Sequence record: MZ234052.1 | Length of the DNA: 64,000 nt | Strand: one strand, 5' to 3' | Origin: Escherichia phage vB_EcoM-PM133 | In this document: piece after piece, positions 5,554 through 53,543 of the stretch | Position numbering within the stretch: the stretch's first letter is position 1 | Layout: each line of letters starts with the position of its first letter | Program-made: the position numbers and the translations under genes | Notes under the pieces: model-generated | Told to the model about the DNA's origin: nothing | Database searches by the model: none | What the model saw: the letters and a program-made list of their open reading frames with translations, nothing else

Positions 5554-5721
5554 ATGTCAGATAAGATTTGTGTTGTCTGTAAAACTCCAATCGATTCTGC
5601 ATTGGTTGTTGAAACAGACAAAGGTCCTGTACATCCTGGGCCTTGCTATAATTACATTAAAGAACTACCAGTTTCAGAAAGTTCGGAAGAACAATTAAAT
5701 GAAACGCAACTTTTGCTATAG
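5554..5721 (+). CDS. small CxxC zinc-ribbon-like protein (uvsY.-2 position)
   Basis: 55-aa ORF below the ORF-track cutoff; RBS GAGGAG; CVVCKT...PGPC motif; followed by a terminator. Confidence 0.45.
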   Translation: MSDKICVVCKTPIDSALVVETDKGPVHPGPCYNYIKELPVSESSEEQLNETQLLL

Positions 5722-5744
5722 TGTGACCTTTAGTCTATAGTTTT

Positions 5745-5773
5745 GGCCCTTCCTTTTTGGTTGGGCCTTTTTT
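5745..5773 (+). terminator. rho-independent terminator after the uvsY operon
   Basis: Hairpin ggccc(13 nt)gggcc followed by TTTTTT. Confidence 0.6.
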
Positions 5774-5776
5774 AAT

Positions 5777-6019
5777 TTAAAAGCTTTCTTCTACTTCATC
5801 GTCTGAATCTTCTAATTCAGCTCTTTTTCCTGCCAAAGCATCTCTGACTGAGATGTCATCAGTATCTTTTAATTCAGTTTCTTTAACTCTTTTCTTATAA
5901 TAAGCTTCAAGTTCTTCTAAACCTTCTAATGTTTGACAAGAGGCAATTTTACCCATAAATTCATCAATAGAAGCTTCATAAAGAAATTGTTTAAATTCTA
6001 GTAACATCTTTTTCTCCAA
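5777..6019 (-). CDS. UvsW.1 small acidic protein
   Basis: 80-aa acidic ORF directly downstream of uvsW on the minus strand. Confidence 0.55.
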   Translation of the reverse strand: MEKKMLLEFKQFLYEASIDEFMGKIASCQTLEGLEELEAYYKKRVKETELKDTDDISVRDALAGKRAELEDSDDEVEESF

Positions 6020-6032
6020 AGGGCCGAAGCCC

Positions 6033-7544
6033 TTATAAATTAACTGTTTTCATTACGTAATTAAATTTTTCATCTGCGTAGCGCTGAATACGATCAATGC
6101 CGTGTTTTAAAAGATAGTTCAAATGAACGTATTTCTTTTTCGTATTAGCAGATTTTGGCTTAACGCCACAATCATCTATGAGGTCCCAGACTGTTGCGAT
6201 TGTTTTAGAACCATGCTTACGTAATACACGACCGATTGTTTGTAATACAATGATTTTTGATTTAACACCGTGTGCTAAAACAACGTGATGCAGATTTTTA
6301 ACTGAAATACCAGTAGAAAATACACCATAACTAGCTACTATAATTATTCCTTTACCGTTTTCAGCTAAGGTTTTCATTATATTGCGGGTTTCGGTATCAA
6401 CTTCCCCTGATACGTAATAAACTTTATCGTATTCATTTTTAATTAAATCGAAAATAGCTTTACCATGCGATACATGTTTAAACATGACAAAAGCGTTTTC
6501 ATCTTTTTGTGCAAGCTTAATAGCCAATTTAGCGATCCATTTATTTCTTTTACTAAGCCCAGTAATAATTTTTATTTCTTCTTGGTAAGTTTTTCCCTTT
6601 AATTTAGTAGTGAACTCATCGGGATAGCGAAGAAAAATACTATTAATTTTTAACTCAGTTACTTGTCCATCTTCCATTAATTTAGAGGTCGTTACTGGCT
6701 TAAATATTTCACCAAACATTCCAACATACTGCATGATATTGGCTTTGCCATCACGTAATGAACCAGACAAACCAAATTTGAACATGCAGTTATTTAAACC
6801 TGATATGATAGATGAAATACTTTTTCCTGTAGCAAGATGACATTCATCATTCATCATCATTCCAAACTGTGAGAACCATTCTTTCGGTTGTTTTACTACA
6901 GTTTGCCATGTACCAACGACGACTGGTGCATCATTTTTATATTTATCATCTTTTGATGCTCCGCCACCAATTTTCTTTATCATTGCATGGCTGAATAAAC
7001 GATAGTCGACGAAGTCATCAGCCATCTGAGTTGTTAGAGCAGTTGTTGGAACAATGATAAGAATTTTACCTTCATAATTTTCCAAATAATATCGCGCAAG
7101 CAAAGCTTGAATTAACGATTTACCAGCGGATGTTGGAAGATTAAGAATTCTACGACGATTAACTAATCCTTCGAACACTGCATCTTTTTGATACCAGTGT
7201 GGTTCAATTCTTTTATTTCCTGAATAGATTTCTAATTTAGAAAGCCATTCATCAAAATCTTTTCTTGATAATTCTTCTTTTTCGTTAATCTGTGGGTCAA
7301 TCCAGGCTTTATAGCCAAAGTTATCACAGAACTTTTTAATTTGCCCGACTAAGCCGAATGGAAGAAGACGATTATAATCTAACAGACGGATTCGTCCATC
7401 CCAGTGGCCATATCTGTACTTCGGATTAAAACGATACCCATCAGCTTCAAAGCTAAAGAAATCACGGAGTTCATGAAATGTACTTTCTTCACAATCAATT
7501 CTCACGTGACTAAAATCATAAAAATGTACTTTAATGTCAGTCAT
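6033..7544 (-). CDS. uvsW: UvsW SF2 DNA/RNA helicase
   Basis: 503-aa ORF with Walker A (PTSAGKS) and DECH box; recalled T4 UvsW. Confidence 0.9.
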   Translation of the reverse strand: MTDIKVHFYDFSHVRIDCEESTFHELRDFFSFEADGYRFNPKYRYGHWDGRIRLLDYNRLLPFGLVGQIKKFCDNFGYKAWIDPQINEKEELSRKDFDEWLSKLEIYSGNKRIEPHWYQKDAVFEGLVNRRRILNLPTSAGKSLIQALLARYYLENYEGKILIIVPTTALTTQMADDFVDYRLFSHAMIKKIGGGASKDDKYKNDAPVVVGTWQTVVKQPKEWFSQFGMMMNDECHLATGKSISSIISGLNNCMFKFGLSGSLRDGKANIMQYVGMFGEIFKPVTTSKLMEDGQVTELKINSIFLRYPDEFTTKLKGKTYQEEIKIITGLSKRNKWIAKLAIKLAQKDENAFVMFKHVSHGKAIFDLIKNEYDKVYYVSGEVDTETRNIMKTLAENGKGIIIVASYGVFSTGISVKNLHHVVLAHGVKSKIIVLQTIGRVLRKHGSKTIATVWDLIDDCGVKPKSANTKKKYVHLNYLLKHGIDRIQRYADEKFNYVMKTVNL

Positions 7545-42644: not shown

Positions 42645-43175
42645 ATGTCGCAAGCACTGCAACAAATTTTTAACCAAGCAAATACAACTAACTTTGTAGT
42701 ATCAATACCACATAGTAATACTACATCTGCTTTTACTTTAAATGCTCAGTCAGTTCCTATTCCAGGAATTAGAATACCTGTTACTGATACCGTGACTGGG
42801 CCGTTTGGACTGGGCCGAGCACAACGTCCAGGTGCTACATTTGAGTACGATCCACTCATCGTGAGATTTATAGTTGATGAAGAACTTAAGTCATGGATAG
42901 GAATGTATGAATGGATGCTAGGAACTAGCAACTATCTTACAGGTGAAAATACTGCCCAAAAAACAGGTCCTGAATACATTACGCTTTACATTTTAGATAA
43001 TAGCAAAACTGAAATCGTGATGTCAATAAATTTTTATAAGCCTTGGGTTTCTGACCTATCTGAAGTAGAATTTAGCTACACAGAAGATTCAGACCCAGCT
43101 TTAGTATGCACAGCAACGATTCCTTATACGTATTTTCAAGTAGAAAAAGATGGAAAAATTATAGCGGAAGTTTAA
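42645..43175 (+). CDS. 3: gp3 tail completion / sheath stabiliser
   Basis: Start chosen at MSQALQQIFNQANTTNF (176 aa) with RBS GAGGAA; ORF track extends upstream to 42564. Confidence 0.8.
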   Translation: MSQALQQIFNQANTTNFVVSIPHSNTTSAFTLNAQSVPIPGIRIPVTDTVTGPFGLGRAQRPGATFEYDPLIVRFIVDEELKSWIGMYEWMLGTSNYLTGENTAQKTGPEYITLYILDNSKTEIVMSINFYKPWVSDLSEVEFSYTEDSDPALVCTATIPYTYFQVEKDGKIIAEV

Positions 43176-43950: not shown

Positions 43951-44647
<697 letters not shown>

Positions 44648-44659
44648 TTTCACAAAGTT

Positions 44660-44689
44660 GTTTACATACTGATGAGGTAGTGATACTAT
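44660..44689 (+). promoter_or_regulatory. T4-type early (sigma70) promoter
   Basis: -35 TTTACA (44661-44666), 17 nt spacer, extended -10 TGaTACTAT (44681-44689); shares a 23-mer with the next promoter. Confidence 0.6.
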
Positions 44690-44698
44690 TACCTCATC
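44671..44698 (+). repeat. promoter-embedded inverted repeat cassette, copy 1
   Basis: Arms gatgaggta / tacctcatc flank the -10 core gtgatactat; related copies at 45036-45068, 45338-45367 and 63944-63973. Confidence 0.6.
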
Positions 44699-44719
44699 AA
44701 AATTAATTAGGAAAATAAA

Positions 44720-45011
44720 ATGAAAACATTTAAAGAATTTACTTCTACTACAACTACCCCGGTTTCTACCATTACCGAAGCTACTCTTACTTCTGAAGTT
44801 ATTAAAGCAAATAAATGACGAGAAGGTAAACCAATGATTAGTCTGGTTGATGGCGAAGAAATCAAAGGTACTGTTTATCTAGGTGATGGGTGGTCTGCTA
44901 AAAAGGATGGTGCTACAATCGTTATCTCTCCTGCTGAAGAAACTGCGTTGTTTAAAGCTAAACACATTTCTGCGGCACATCTCAAGATTATTGCTAAAAA
45001 TCTTTTGTAAT
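44720..45011 (+). pseudogene. ipI-like internal protein gene interrupted by in-frame TGA (codon 33)
   Basis: ATG at 44720 gives MKTFKEFTSTTTTPVSTITE...KANK, then TGA at 44816-44818, then the same frame continues REGKPMISLVDGEEIKGTVYLGDGWSAKKDG... to TAA at 45009-45011. Confidence 0.55.
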
Positions 45012-45029
45012 AAACAATTTCACAAAGTT

Positions 45030-45059
45030 GTTTACATAGGGTTTTAGTTGTGATACTAT
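45030..45059 (+). promoter_or_regulatory. T4-type early promoter
   Basis: -35 TTTACA (45031-45036), 17 nt spacer, -10 TGaTACTAT (45051-45059). Confidence 0.6.
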
Positions 45060-45093
45060 TACCCTATCAAAACAAAACCAAATGGAAATCAAA

Positions 45094-45327
45094 ATGAAAA
45101 CTTACCAAGAATTTATTGCTGAAACTGCTGATGTAAAAGTTGAGTTTATTTACACTGGCAAGAAAGATAAAATGGGTGAAATGCCTCATGGAGTTCTTCG
45201 TGATGCATTAGATAATTTCGGTCAACTCGCCGCAGAAGATTACGGTGATAAAATTGTTGTTACTGGTCCTGCTGCAGTTATTGAAAAATGGGCAGCAGAA
45301 AATAAATCAATTTTTCGTAAAAAATAA
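45094..45327 (+). CDS. internal-protein-like ORF with capsid targeting sequence
   Basis: ATG at 45094 gives MKTYQEFIAE...; early promoter cassette upstream. Confidence 0.6.
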   Translation: MKTYQEFIAETADVKVEFIYTGKKDKMGEMPHGVLRDALDNFGQLAAEDYGDKIVVTGPAAVIEKWAAENKSIFRKK

Positions 45328-45357
45328 GTTTACTTTTAGATAGGGTAGTGATACTAT
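45328..45357 (+). promoter_or_regulatory. T4-type early promoter
   Basis: -35 TTTACT (45329-45334), 17 nt spacer, -10 TACTAT (45352-45357). Confidence 0.55.
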
Positions 45358-45385
45358 TACCCTATCTACTACTGAGGAGAATAAA

Positions 45386-46356: not shown

Positions 46357-46429
46357 TGGGAATTAGCCAAGTTGGTAAGGCACTGGATTTTGATTCCAGG
46401 ATGCAAAGGTTCGAGTCCTTTATTCCCAG
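46357..46429 (+). tRNA. tRNA-Gln (anticodon UUG)
   Basis: Cloverleaf: acceptor tgggaat/attccca, anticodon stem ctgga/tccag, loop ttTTGat; CCA not encoded. Confidence 0.85.
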
Positions 46430-46430
46430 C

Positions 46431-46517
46431 GCGAGAATGGCCAAATTGGTAAAGGCACAGCACTTAAAATGCTGCGGAATGATTTCCTTGTGGGTTCGAG
46501 TCCCACTTCTCGCACCA
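46431..46517 (+). tRNA. tRNA-Leu (anticodon UAA)
   Basis: Acceptor gcgagaa/ttctcgc, loop ctTAAaa, long variable arm; CCA encoded. Confidence 0.85.
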
Positions 46518-46522
46518 AATTT

Positions 46523-46596
<74 letters not shown>

Positions 46597-46606
46597 ATTT
46601 AATTTA

Positions 46607-46680
46607 CTCCGTGTAGCTCAGTTTGGTAGAGCGTCTGCTTTGGGAGCAGAATGTCGTAGGTTCAAATCCTGCCACGGAGA
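46607..46680 (+). tRNA. tRNA-Pro (anticodon UGG)
   Basis: Acceptor ctccgtg/cacggag, D-arm agctcagtttggtagagc, loop ttTGGga. Confidence 0.85.
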
Positions 46681-46682
46681 CT

Positions 46683-46772
46683 GGAGGCGTGGCAGAGTGG
46701 TTTAATGCACCGGTCTTGAAAACCGGCAGTCGCTCCGGCGACTCATAGGTTCAAATCCTATCGCCTCCGCCA
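46683..46772 (+). tRNA. tRNA-Ser (anticodon UGA)
   Basis: Acceptor ggaggcg/cgcctcc, loop ctTGAaa, long variable arm; CCA encoded. Confidence 0.85.
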
Positions 46773-46777
46773 GTTTT

Positions 46778-46853
46778 GCTGATTTAGCTCAGTAGGTAGA
46801 GCAACTCACTTGTAATGAGAAGGTCGGCGGTTCGATTCCGTCAATCAGCACCA
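46778..46853 (+). tRNA. tRNA-Thr (anticodon UGU)
   Basis: Acceptor gctgatt/aatcagc, loop ctTGTaa; CCA encoded. Confidence 0.8.
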
Positions 46854-46854
46854 A

Positions 46855-46929
46855 GGCCCTGTAGCTGGAAGGTTCAAGCAAGCGACTCATAATCGCCAGA
46901 TGGTGGTTCAATTCCACCCAGGGCCACCA
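46855..46929 (+). tRNA. tRNA-Ile (anticodon CAU, probably lysidine-modified; could score as Met)
   Basis: Acceptor ggccctg/cagggcc, loop ctCATaa; T4-like phages carry an AUA-reading tRNA-Ile at this position. Confidence 0.7.
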
Positions 46930-46938
46930 AATTAATTT

Positions 46939-47025
46939 GGGGAGTTATCCCGTAGAGGTAGCGGTGTGGACTGTAAATTCATTGTCATTGCGACTCGGGT
47001 GGTTCGACTCCACCACTCCCCACCA
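46939..47025 (+). tRNA. tRNA-Tyr (anticodon GUA)
   Basis: Acceptor ggggagt/actcccc, loop ctGTAaa, long variable arm; architecture like bacterial tRNA-Tyr. Confidence 0.7.
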
Positions 47026-47029
47026 ATTT

Positions 47030-47104
47030 GGATGTGTAGCTCAATAGCAGAGCGATCGCCTGTTAAGCGATTGGTTATAGGTTCGAATCCTATCACGTCC
47101 GCCA
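47030..47104 (+). tRNA. tRNA-Asn (anticodon GUU)
   Basis: Acceptor ggatgtg/cacgtcc, D-stem gctc/gagc, anticodon stem atcgc/gcgat, loop ctGTTaa; CCA encoded. Confidence 0.75.
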
Positions 47105-47108
47105 AATA

Positions 47109-47184
47109 CGAGGCATAGCTCAGAAGGAAGAGCAAGGACCTTCTAAGTCCTGGGTCGTAGGTTCGATCCCTACTGCCTCGACCA
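47109..47184 (+). tRNA. tRNA-Arg (anticodon UCU)
   Basis: Acceptor cgaggca/tgcctcg, anticodon stem aggac/gtcct, loop ctTCTaa; CCA encoded. Confidence 0.85.
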
Positions 47185-52735: not shown

Positions 52736-53053
52736 ATGAAAACATATCAAGAATTTATTGCAGAATCTGCCGCAGGACAACGTGTAGAAGGCGGTTATAT
52801 TTGGATTGAACAAGTTGAGCCGCCGAGTCGCACTTCTACAGGTAAATGGAAAATCACTGTTGATGGTCCTGGTGGTAAACGTAGGACTCTTAAAGAAATT
52901 AACGGGTACTATGAAGAAGCTCTTTCAGACGCGGGTACTTATATGATGCAAATTATGATTAAAAACCCAGAAAATCGTTTTGCAGCTAGAGTTTTTCGTC
53001 GTATTGGAAATAAGCTTTACGACGCATATTCTAAAAATTTTCCTAAAGAATAA
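52736..53053 (+). CDS. internal protein with capsid targeting sequence
   Basis: 105-aa ORF starting MKTYQEFIAE; RBS AAAGGAAACATATG. Confidence 0.6.
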   Translation: MKTYQEFIAESAAGQRVEGGYIWIEQVEPPSRTSTGKWKITVDGPGGKRRTLKEINGYYEEALSDAGTYMMQIMIKNPENRFAARVFRRIGNKLYDAYSKNFPKE

Positions 53054-53069
53054 AAATTAAAGGAATCAT

Positions 53070-53543
53070 ATGAAAACATATCAAGAATTTATCACTGAAG
53101 CAGCTATTAATTCTCAAATTATTGCTGAATCTTTTACTGATCTTTTGAAATTTAAAAAAGGTCAAAAAATCACTGCTGTATTGGATGATGGTACAGAAGT
53201 TGAGATGGATGTACAGGGATATAATTATGCAGTAGATGGAAAACTGTATAATAAATCTCATGCTAAATTTGATTCATTTGACGACTTTGTTAATACAGTT
53301 GAAGATGAAAAAACTCGTCGATCCATTGCAACCGGTGATGCTAAGGTTCTTATGGCACATGGTCATGAACGCATTCGCGCTAAACAGAATAAAATGGGCG
53401 AAGATAATTTCGCATTAGTTGGTTATCAATCTGGTAAACAAACTTATGGTTATCAACGTACTGCTACCATGTATAATAAAAATGGTAAAATTGCCTTTGT
53501 AAATAGTAAAGGTTCTATTCAGTACGTTAAATCGTTCAAATAA
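53070..53543 (+). CDS. internal protein with capsid targeting sequence
   Basis: 157-aa ORF starting MKTYQEFITEAA; RBS AAAGGAATCATATG. Confidence 0.6.
   Translation: MKTYQEFITEAAINSQIIAESFTDLLKFKKGQKITAVLDDGTEVEMDVQGYNYAVDGKLYNKSHAKFDSFDDFVNTVEDEKTRRSIATGDAKVLMAHGHERIRAKQNKMGEDNFALVGYQSGKQTYGYQRTATMYNKNGKIAFVNSKGSIQYVKSFK

What the first reader, a model, noticed from the sequence alone, without database searches (positions are those of the whole stretch)
44720..45011. ipI-like internal protein gene interrupted by an in-frame UGA in a leaky UGA-C context
A single 97-codon frame encodes an internal-protein-like product but has TGA at codon 33 (44816-44818), immediately followed by C. UGA-C is the most readthrough-prone stop context in E. 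coli. Joined across the stop the product is 96 aa, close to the ~95 aa I recall for the T4 IPI precursor (mature IPI* 76 aa after removal of a 19-residue targeting peptide), so cleavage after Glu20 here would give the same mature size. IPI protects glucosylated-hmC DNA from GmrS/GmrD-type restriction. This is either a natural opal pseudogene (host range consequence) or a low-level readthrough product; a sequencing error is also possible.
Basis: partly seen in the sequence, partly recalled or inferred. Interest (0 to 1): 0.6.

Follow-up and report, generated by a model that had tools for sequence, protein, structure and literature searches.

The report
Nonsense-mutated T4 ipI anti-restriction gene
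This is the well-known phage T4 gene ipI, which makes an injected inhibitor of a host restriction enzyme, knocked out by a single G-to-T change that turns an invariant glycine codon into a stop; it is an ordinary loss-of-function allele, not a new recoding signal.

Summary
Frame 44720-45010 is the true orthologue of T4 ipI (Pfam IPI_T4, E=1.5e-52). With Gly restored, its mature part is 100% identical to the solved IPI* structure 2JUB. Codon 33 (44816-44818) is TGA followed by C.

The stop is a single G>T change of the GGA Gly codon found in T4 and in the nearest intact 96-aa alleles (phages G28 and ECML-134, 2 and 4 nt away). The +4 C is simply the first base of the ancestral CGA codon, so the "leaky context" is inherited, not evolved.

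Only 3 of about 530 phage records with ipI carry the TGA. They are not independent. The window is the lab-bred phage PM107/PM108 (Loose et al. 2021). It acquired a 513-592 bp ipI cassette from its wastewater ancestor 101117BS1 by recombination, replacing the backbone's 85-aa "ip5" gene. Three separately sequenced clones agree, so a sequencing error is unlikely.

Against a functional readthrough:
- The Gly is invariant in all homologues.
- The phage has no suppressor tRNA.
- No RNA structure flanks the stop.
- The stop is not conserved in any other lineage.

Other public assemblies show independent ipI frameshifts.

Verdict: a recent null, or at most weakly leaky, allele of a dispensable, narrow-target anti-GmrSD gene. 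Low interest.

The parts
44642..44702 (+). Promoter plus stem-loop cassette upstream of ipI (copy 1 of 3; TTTACA-N17-TACTAT, with a hairpin enclosing the -10 box)
   Evidence: 61-nt direct-repeat family D1. Promoter-like site at 44661-44689. Hairpin of -17.4 kcal/mol, z -5.4. Matches the PST/T4-type PeSL promoter consensus TTTACW..N17..TAYWAT (PMC4122927).
44720..44779 (+). ipI codons 1-20: capsid-targeting leader MKTFKEFTSTTTTPVSTITE, ending in the I-T-E cleavage motif
   Evidence: Translation. The mature 2JUB chain starts at residue 21. The leader aligns with all homologues. One extra Thr codon relative to T4, shared with the intact alleles of G28 and ECML-134.
44780..44815 (+). ipI codons 21-32: the first 12 residues of mature IPI* (ATLTSEVIKANK), all that remains before the stop
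44816..44818 (+). Opal codon TGA replacing GGA (Gly; residue 13 of mature IPI*). G>T transversion at 44816; the next base, C, belongs to the ancestral CGA Arg codon
   Evidence: Alignments with T4 and with G28 and ECML-134. Gly is invariant in all homologues covering the column.
44819..45010 (+). Rest of the ipI frame (codons 34-96 plus TAA), still identical in protein sequence to T4 IPI*
44834..45010 (+). Secondary 58-aa ORF (ATG = Met38 of T4 IPI), preceded by GAAGG. It is annotated as a separate 'hypothetical protein' in PM107 and 101117BS1. It lacks the capsid-targeting leader
   Evidence: ORF list. Annotations PM107_242 and 101117BS1_238. Sequence shown.
44445..45036 (+). Tract identical to ancestor 101117BS1 (minimum 44503-45015), inserted into a G3G7/CHD16UKE1-type backbone. 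Left crossover at 44445-44502 inside 57B/acb1; right crossover at 45016-45036 inside the conserved promoter box
   Evidence: Mismatch maps against all four ancestors.
45012..45072 (+). Promoter plus stem-loop cassette, copy 2. It contains the right-hand crossover and drives the next internal-protein gene
45094..45327 (+). Neighbouring intact internal-protein gene (77 aa, leader MKTYQEFIAE). It is absent from T4 at this locus, and its allele is that of the G3G7/CHD16UKE1 backbone
   Evidence: PHROG 8111 'internal virion protein', E=1.2e-52. Allele comparison.

Best explanation
The feature is a recent nonsense (opal) allele of ipI, the T4 gene for internal protein I. Normally the 95-96 aa precursor is targeted into the prohead by its N-terminal leader. 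The head protease trims it to the 76-aa IPI*, which is packed at about 360 copies per head and injected with the DNA to block CT596/Eco94-type GmrSD type IV restriction of glucosyl-hmC DNA. Here a single G>T change converts the invariant Gly codon 33 (GGA) into TGA. Translation therefore mostly ends after 32 residues, leaving the leader plus 12 residues. At most a few per cent of ribosomes would read through, inserting Trp at an invariant Gly. The 58-aa downstream ORF, if made, lacks the leader and cannot be packaged. The phage is therefore expected to behave as an ipI-null or very weak hypomorph and to be restricted on hosts with an IPI*-sensitive GmrSD. It pays no cost on hosts without that enzyme, and ipI is dispensable there. 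The mutation arose in, or before the isolation of, the wastewater phage 101117BS1. During laboratory breeding it moved as a roughly 0.5-kb cassette into the PM107/PM108 backbone. The move was by homologous recombination, with one crossover in 57B/acb1 and one in the repeated promoter/stem-loop box. It displaced the backbone's alternative 85-aa internal-protein gene. Shown here: gene identity, the exact mutation, its rarity, its single origin, the recombination tract, the invariance of the Gly, and the absence of a suppressor tRNA or RNA structure. Inferred: loss of anti-GmrSD function, and neutrality of the allele on the hosts used.
For: Identity: Pfam IPI_T4, E=1.5e-52; 100% match of residues 21-96 (Gly restored) to PDB 2JUB; synteny 57A-57B-ipI-...-trna.4 as in T4. 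Mutation: GGA in T4; only 2 nt differ from the intact 96-aa allele of G28, namely T44816G and one synonymous site. Rarity: a 52-nt probe that needs the T to seed megablast hits only PM107, PM108 and 101117BS1, out of about 530 records with ipI. The allele has 0 hits in IMG/VR, JGI metagenomes and GTDB genomes. Single origin and transfer: PM107 and PM108 were bred from CHD16UKE1, G3G7, CHD94UKE2 and 101117BS1 (PMC8614997). Only 101117BS1 has ipI; the other three carry an 85-aa gene at that slot. The window is identical to 101117BS1 over 44445-45036 and to G3G7/CHD16UKE1 from 45016 onward. Not an error: Illumina/SPAdes assemblies of three separately purified clones agree. Against useful readthrough: Gly and the motif KANKGREGKPMI are invariant even in homologues of 37-66% identity; none of the 10 phage tRNAs has a TCA anticodon; there is no RNA structure around the stop (z=+1.24); the reporter UGA readthrough in K-12 is only about 2-4% (PMC10570021). 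Dispensability and decay: public assemblies show independent ipI frameshifts, namely +C, -C and +G, plus a 1-nt deletion (the T of GGT GAT). T4 delta-ip1 is viable but plates at 1e-6 to 1e-7 on GmrSD hosts (PMC4437046). Each Ip inhibits only one GmrSD subtype (PMC12373910).
Against: No functional data exist for this allele. UGA followed by C is a documented weak termination signal in E. coli (PMC5289835), so some full-length W33 protein will be made; whether a handful of copies per capsid protects is unknown. The rest of the frame carries no further damage, which is equally compatible with a very recent null and with continued selection on a readthrough product. The allele survived 20 rounds of breeding and replaced an intact ip gene in PM107/108. 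That could be hitchhiking, but the data do not exclude a selective advantage. Raw reads were not available to me.
Confidence: 0.85

Rival explanations
1. Functional hypomorph by readthrough. tRNA-Trp reads the UGA-C at a few per cent. The resulting G33W precursor is packaged through its intact leader and processed, and the few copies injected still give useful protection against GmrSD, or a deliberately lowered dose.
For: +4 C weakens termination at UGA in E. coli (PMC5289835). Reporter UGA readthrough is 2-4% in K-12 (PMC10570021). The leader and the whole downstream frame are intact. About 360 copies per head normally would leave roughly 7-15 copies.
Against: The C is ancestral (GGA CGA), so the context was not selected. 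The stop occurs in one lineage only. The replaced Gly lies in the most conserved motif of the family and never varies. There is no suppressor tRNA and no stimulatory structure. Dose matters for Ip inhibitors: wild-type T4 could not disarm the highly expressed ECOR21 GmrSD without extra Ip2 (PMC12373910). From my own knowledge, natural E. coli carry a more active RF2 than K-12, which would lower readthrough further.
Confidence: 0.08
2. Sequencing or assembly artefact: the real phage has GGA.
For: Raw reads were not examined. All three records come from one laboratory and one pipeline.
Against: The same T is in three separately plaque-purified and sequenced phages: one ancestor and two bred progeny. 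It lies inside a 592-bp tract that is otherwise identical between them. It is a substitution outside any homopolymer, in MiSeq/SPAdes consensus. No other genuine T4-shared gene in the 64-kb window has an internal stop.
Confidence: 0.03
3. Split gene with a functional C-terminal product. Ribosomes reinitiate at ATG 44834 (GAAGG seven nt upstream), and the 58-aa fragment acts in the cytoplasm.
For: An ATG with a Shine-Dalgarno-like GAAGG lies 16 nt after the stop. Gene callers annotate this ORF.
Against: The same ATG and GAAGG are present in every intact ipI (Met38), so they are not a new feature. The fragment lacks the leader needed for packaging and injection, and it lacks the N-terminal helix of a fold whose integrity is reported as required for activity (PMC3012670). 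An inhibitor made only after DNA entry comes too late to protect the incoming genome (inference).
Confidence: 0.02

Closest known systems
T4 ipI / IPI* (Pfam PF11634, PDB 2JUB), the injected inhibitor of CT596- and Eco94-type GmrSD
   Same: Same gene at the same locus. Same leader and cleavage motif. The mature sequence is identical apart from the stop.
   Different: Codon 33 is TGA instead of GGA. There is one extra Thr in the leader, which intact alleles of G28 and ECML-134 also have.
Laboratory ipI-deficient T4 mutants (deletion eG506; missense HA35 and KAI-)
   Same: The expected phenotype is the same: viable on ordinary hosts and restricted about 1e-6-fold on GmrSD hosts (PMC4437046).
   Different: This one is a nonsense allele found in a wastewater isolate and its bred descendants. 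Its phenotype has not been tested.
Natural presence/absence and decay polymorphism of internal-protein genes at the ipI locus of T-even phages (Repoila et al. 1994, as cited in PMC12373910 and PMC3012670)
   Same: ipI alternates with other leader-bearing genes at this slot. ipI occupies it in 189 records and the 85-aa 'ip5' in 252. Frameshifted ipI copies occur in metagenome assemblies.
   Different: Here the loss is by point nonsense mutation rather than cassette replacement or frameshift.
Programmed UGA readthrough in phages (Q-beta A1 protein; from my own knowledge)
   Same: A UGA that tRNA-Trp can read at a few per cent, with an in-frame continuation.
   Different: In Q-beta the stop is conserved and the extension is essential. 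Here the stop is private to one lineage and replaces an invariant residue.
[quoted passage not shown]
   Same: Three 61-nt copies flank the small genes at this locus, each with TTTACA-N17-TACTAT and a hairpin. The right crossover of the ipI cassette falls inside one copy.
   Different: Only one of the two crossovers is in a cassette; the other is in the 57B/acb1 coding sequence. This is ordinary homologous recombination between about 98%-identical genomes.

Membership tests
T4 ipI (IPI_T4, PF11634) | Sequence match above the curated family threshold | tested here: met
   175.9 bits against a cut-off of 25, covering profile positions 1-76 of 76. PHROG 4363 'internal virion protein', E=1.8e-46. 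2JUB, E=1.2e-44.
T4 ipI (IPI_T4, PF11634) | Position between 57B (acb1) and the trna.4-trna.2/tRNA cluster | tested here: met
   Annotated neighbourhoods of PM107 and T4.
T4 ipI (IPI_T4, PF11634) | N-terminal capsid-targeting leader ending in an (I/L)-x-E protease site, directly before mature residue Ala1 | tested here: met
   MKTFKEF...ITE|ATLT. Actual packaging and cleavage cannot be tested here.
T4 ipI (IPI_T4, PF11634) | Uninterrupted reading frame giving the full precursor | tested here: not met
   TGA at codon 33. It is therefore filed as a nonsense allele or pseudogene of ipI, not as a working member.
T4 ipI (IPI_T4, PF11634) | Inhibition of CT596- or Eco94-type GmrSD after injection | not testable with these tools
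   Needs plating assays. Literature values for T4 and T4 delta-ip1 are in PMC4437046.
Programmed stop-codon readthrough | The stop codon is conserved among relatives that keep the downstream frame | tested here: not met
   Only 3 of about 530 records carry it, all tracing to one isolate. All 38 homologous protein clusters that cover this position have Gly.
Programmed stop-codon readthrough | A dedicated stimulatory context, structure or suppressor tRNA | tested here: not met
   The +4 C is ancestral. No structure was found (z=+1.24). There is no tRNA with a TCA anticodon.
Programmed stop-codon readthrough | A detectable and required readthrough product | not testable with these tools
   Needs virion mass spectrometry or a reporter assay.
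PeSL cassette (flanking element) | Early-promoter consensus TTTACW-N17-TAYWAT combined with a stem-loop, repeated next to variable small genes | tested here: met
   Consensus quoted from PMC4122927. Promoter and terminator activity were not tested.

The most novel reading that the evidence does not exclude
The opal allele is maintained because a strongly reduced IPI* dose, or none, is advantageous on some clinical E. coli, for example if a host defence senses IPI*. On this reading its spread into the bred phages PM107/PM108, displacing an intact ip5 gene, reflects selection rather than hitchhiking. The UGA-C would then act as a crude dose-reducing switch that reverts easily.
Probability: 0.04. 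Interest if true: 0.55.

Novelty: already known. Interest (0 to 1): 0.13.

Why it matters
The biological importance is modest. It is one more example of anti-defence accessory genes of T-even phages being gained, swapped and lost according to which GmrSD variants their hosts carry.

There is a practical point. PM107 and PM108 were bred as candidate therapeutic phages. At this locus they carry a dead ipI in place of the ancestors' intact 85-aa internal-protein gene. That predicts sensitivity to IPI*-sensitive GmrSD enzymes, and possibly to whatever the lost gene countered.

There is also an annotation point. GenBank lists the gene as two hypothetical proteins in PM107 and 101117BS1, and as nothing in PM108. 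It should be marked as an ipI pseudogene.

Tried and rejected
- **Suppressor tRNA.** ARAGORN finds 10 phage tRNAs, none with a TCA anticodon.
- **Stimulatory RNA structure.** Folding 44800-44860 gives nothing above shuffles.
- **Independent natural occurrences of the TGA allele.** None found in IMG/VR, JGI metagenome contigs or GTDB genomes. The other contigs that encode the 58-aa ORF have frameshifts or an N gap, not the TGA.
- **Three independent records.** Rejected after reading Loose et al. 2021: PM107 and PM108 descend from 101117BS1.
- **AlphaFold model of IPI, to place Gly13.** The model was poor (pLDDT 51.7) and was not used.
- **Primary IPI* papers.** Bair 2007, Rifat 2008 and Repoila 1994 are not held in the library. 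Their content is cited only through papers that quote them.
- **Stop-context statistics in the window.** TGA-C ends about 2 of 90 putative genes, against about 4 expected from base composition. This is uninformative.
- **General sloppiness of the assembly.** Rejected: no other genuine T4-shared gene has an internal stop. The apparent stops in uvsW and nrdC.11 are annotation effects.

Full report
**1. What is in the sequence**

The + strand frame starting at ATG 44720 reads MKTFKEFTSTTTTPVSTITEATLTSEVIKANK, then TGA (44816-44818), then REGKPMISLVDGEE...IAKNLL, ending at TAA 45008-45010. The base after TGA is C, the first base of a CGA codon.

**2. Identity**

- With the stop bridged, the 96-aa product matches Pfam IPI_T4 over the whole model (175.9 bits, cut-off 25).
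- It also matches PHROG 4363, "internal virion protein".
- Residues 21-96, with Gly at the stop position, are identical to the 76-residue chain of PDB 2JUB, "Internal protein I".
- The DNA is 97.9% identical to T4 ipI across the query, including the flanking sequence.
- The gene sits where ipI sits in T4: after gene 1, 57A and 57B (now Acb1), and before trna.4/3/2 and the tRNA cluster.

So this is ipI itself, not merely an ipI-like gene.

**3. The mutation**

- T4 has GGA (Gly) at this codon; the window has TGA.
- The window also has one extra ACT (Thr) in the leader, which explains 96 aa against 95 aa.
- That 96-aa form exists intact in phages vB_EcoM-G28 (manure, Germany) and ECML-134.
- The window's gene differs from G28's by only two bases: T44816 (G in G28) and a synonymous T44878C.
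- The stop is therefore a one-step G>T transversion of a working allele.
- The following C is the ancestral first base of the Arg codon. The "leaky UGA-C context" is inherited by accident, not evolved.

**4. How common is it, and is it real?**

About 530 phage records match the locus. I used a 52-nt probe centred on the T, which can seed megablast only if the T is present. It hits three records: PM107, PM108 and 101117BS1. Exact-pattern scans of IMG/VR, JGI metagenome contigs and GTDB genomes found no further copy.

The window is 100% identical to PM107/PM108. Its coordinates correspond to the last 64,000 bases of the PM107 record.

Loose et al. 2021 (PMC8614997) show that PM107 and PM108 are laboratory-bred "epsilon-squared" phages. 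They were obtained by 20 rounds of Appelmans-type co-propagation of four wastewater myoviruses on 24 uropathogenic E. coli strains. The four ancestors were CHD16UKE1, G3G7, CHD94UKE2 and 101117BS1. Each phage was plaque-purified and sequenced on MiSeq with SPAdes assembly. The three records therefore trace to one source, 101117BS1. They are still three separately purified and sequenced clones, which makes a consensus substitution error very unlikely.

As a control, I ran tblastn of all T4 ORFs from T4 50-121 kb against the window. ipI is the only genuine shared gene with an internal stop. The apparent stops in uvsW and nrdC.11 are annotation effects.

**5. How the allele reached this genome**

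- Only 101117BS1 has ipI. The other three ancestors carry a different 85-aa leader-bearing gene at that slot (MKTFKEFATKTTITE|SSHGMEVKL...).
- That gene is annotated "ip5" in phage fFiEco06 and is present in 252 records, against 189 for ipI.
- Mismatch maps show the window is identical to 101117BS1 over 44445-45036. It is identical to G3G7/CHD16UKE1 from 45016 to at least 48500, and to G3G7 over 44180-44502.
- The ipI(opal) cassette (minimum 44503-45015) was therefore recombined into a G3G7/CHD16UKE1-type backbone.
  - The left crossover is inside 57B/acb1.
  - The right crossover is at 45016-45036, inside the conserved box AATTTCACAAAGTTGTTTACATA.
- That box is part of a 61-nt cassette present three times: 44642-44702, 45012-45072 and 45310-45370. 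Each copy has a TTTACA-N17-TACTAT promoter-like site and a strong hairpin around the -10 box (-13.7 to -18.5 kcal/mol, z -4.2 to -5.4).
- This matches the PST/T4-type PeSL consensus of Comeau et al. 2014 (PMC4122927).
- Two further short 101117BS1-like patches lie upstream, at about 43083-43165 and 44118-44190.

**6. What the allele does (inference)**

Established background:
- IPI is made as a precursor, targeted to the prohead by its leader, and trimmed to the 76-aa IPI*.
- IPI* is packed at about 360 copies per head and injected with the DNA.
- There it inhibits CT596- and Eco94-type GmrSD. T4 delta-ip1 plates at 1e-6 to 1e-7 on such hosts but is otherwise viable (PMC4437046; PMC3012670).
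- Ip1, Ip2 and Ip3 each block only one GmrSD subtype (PMC12373910).

With TGA at codon 33, the main product is the 20-residue leader plus 12 residues.

Readthrough by tRNA-Trp is physically expected at a low level. UGA with +4 C is a documented weak terminator (PMC5289835), and a K-12 reporter gave 2% at 37 C and 4% at 25 C (PMC10570021). Four results argue against a useful readthrough product:
- It would put Trp at a Gly that is invariant in all 38 homologous clusters covering the column. That Gly lies inside KANKGREGKPMI, the only block conserved even in the 37-66%-identity homologues P0035 and P0039.
- No phage tRNA has a TCA anticodon.
- No RNA structure flanks the stop.
- The stop is not conserved in any other lineage.

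The 58-aa ORF from ATG 44834 uses a Met and a GAAGG that every intact ipI also has. Its product would lack the leader, so it could not be injected.

The best reading is a null or very weak hypomorph. It would be neutral on hosts without an IPI*-sensitive GmrSD.

**7. ipI is often lost**

Other assemblies that yield a truncated ipI gene call carry independent lesions:
- +C (L007, L009) and -C (L014) in the C4 run of the leader.
- +G at the same Gly codon (L006).
- A 1-nt deletion (the T of GGT GAT) (L015).
- A truncated gene in phage BYEP02 (P0034).

Some of these may be assembly errors. Together with the alternation of ipI and ip5 at this slot, they fit relaxed or fluctuating selection on a narrow-target accessory gene. 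The window still has three intact leader-bearing genes, at 45094-45327, 52736-53053 and 53070-53543. None is an orthologue of T4 ipII or ipIII.

**8. Comparison and verdict**

The feature works like, and is, a knocked-out copy of a known gene. It fails the one membership criterion that matters for function, an open frame. It also fails both testable criteria for programmed readthrough: conservation of the stop, and a dedicated signal.

The novelty is nil in kind. The specific allele appears unreported and is mis-annotated in GenBank, as two hypothetical proteins in PM107 and 101117BS1 and as nothing in PM108.

The residual interesting possibility is that loss or dose reduction of IPI* was selected during breeding. 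I rate that at about 4%.

Interest: 0.13.

Noticed in passing
window 44445-45036 (also 43083-43165 and 44118-44190): The window is a laboratory-made mosaic. Short tracts identical to ancestor 101117BS1 are embedded in a G3G7/CHD16UKE1-type backbone. The ipI tract swaps one internal-protein cassette (85-aa 'ip5') for another. Its right crossover lies inside a repeated promoter/stem-loop box, so it is a directly documented case of cassette exchange at this hyperplastic locus.
   Followed up: yes
window 44642-44702, 45012-45072, 45310-45370: Three copies of a 61-nt PeSL-like cassette (TTTACA-N17-TACTAT plus a 10-14 bp hairpin enclosing the -10 box). One copy precedes each of ipI, the 77-aa ip gene and trna.4.
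   Followed up: partly
window 45094-45327, 52736-53053, 53070-53543: Three intact ORFs with the MKTYQEFI(A/T)E capsid-targeting leader (77, 105 and 157 aa). They are not orthologues of T4 ipII or ipIII (only a 33%-identity partial hit of ipII to the 157-aa ORF). Their targets are unknown.
   Followed up: partly
L006, L007, L009, L014, L015 (metagenome and Logan contigs); P0034 (phage BYEP02): Independent frameshifted or truncated ipI copies in other T4-like genomes: +C and -C in the leader's C4 run, +G at the same Gly codon, and a 1-nt deletion (the T of GGT GAT). Some may be assembly errors.
   Followed up: partly
L011 (CHD16UKE1) about 5570-6025, equivalent to window 44279-44285: Ancestor CHD16UKE1 has a net -2 indel inside 57B/acb1 and a shortened annotated CDS. 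This suggests a disrupted anti-CBASS Acb1 gene in that phage. It is not present in the window.
   Followed up: no
window 6009-7538 (- strand): There is a stop codon where RefSeq T4 annotates a fused 587-aa UvsW. From my own knowledge, this probably reflects the UvsW/UvsW.1 two-gene arrangement and a known T4 sequence discrepancy, which the RefSeq record itself flags. It is not a disruption.
   Followed up: partly
window 46357-47184: The tRNA cluster has 10 genes (Gln, Leu, Gly, Pro, Ser, Thr, Met, Tyr, Asn, Arg) and no segB, whereas T4 has 8 tRNAs with segB inserted.
   Followed up: no
L001/L002 (GenBank MZ234042, MZ234051), L003 (MZ234018): Annotation inconsistency. PM107 and 101117BS1 list the two halves of ipI as separate hypothetical proteins. 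PM108 skips the locus altogether (locus tag 00226 is missing). 57B is 'hypothetical' although it matches Acb1.
   Followed up: yes
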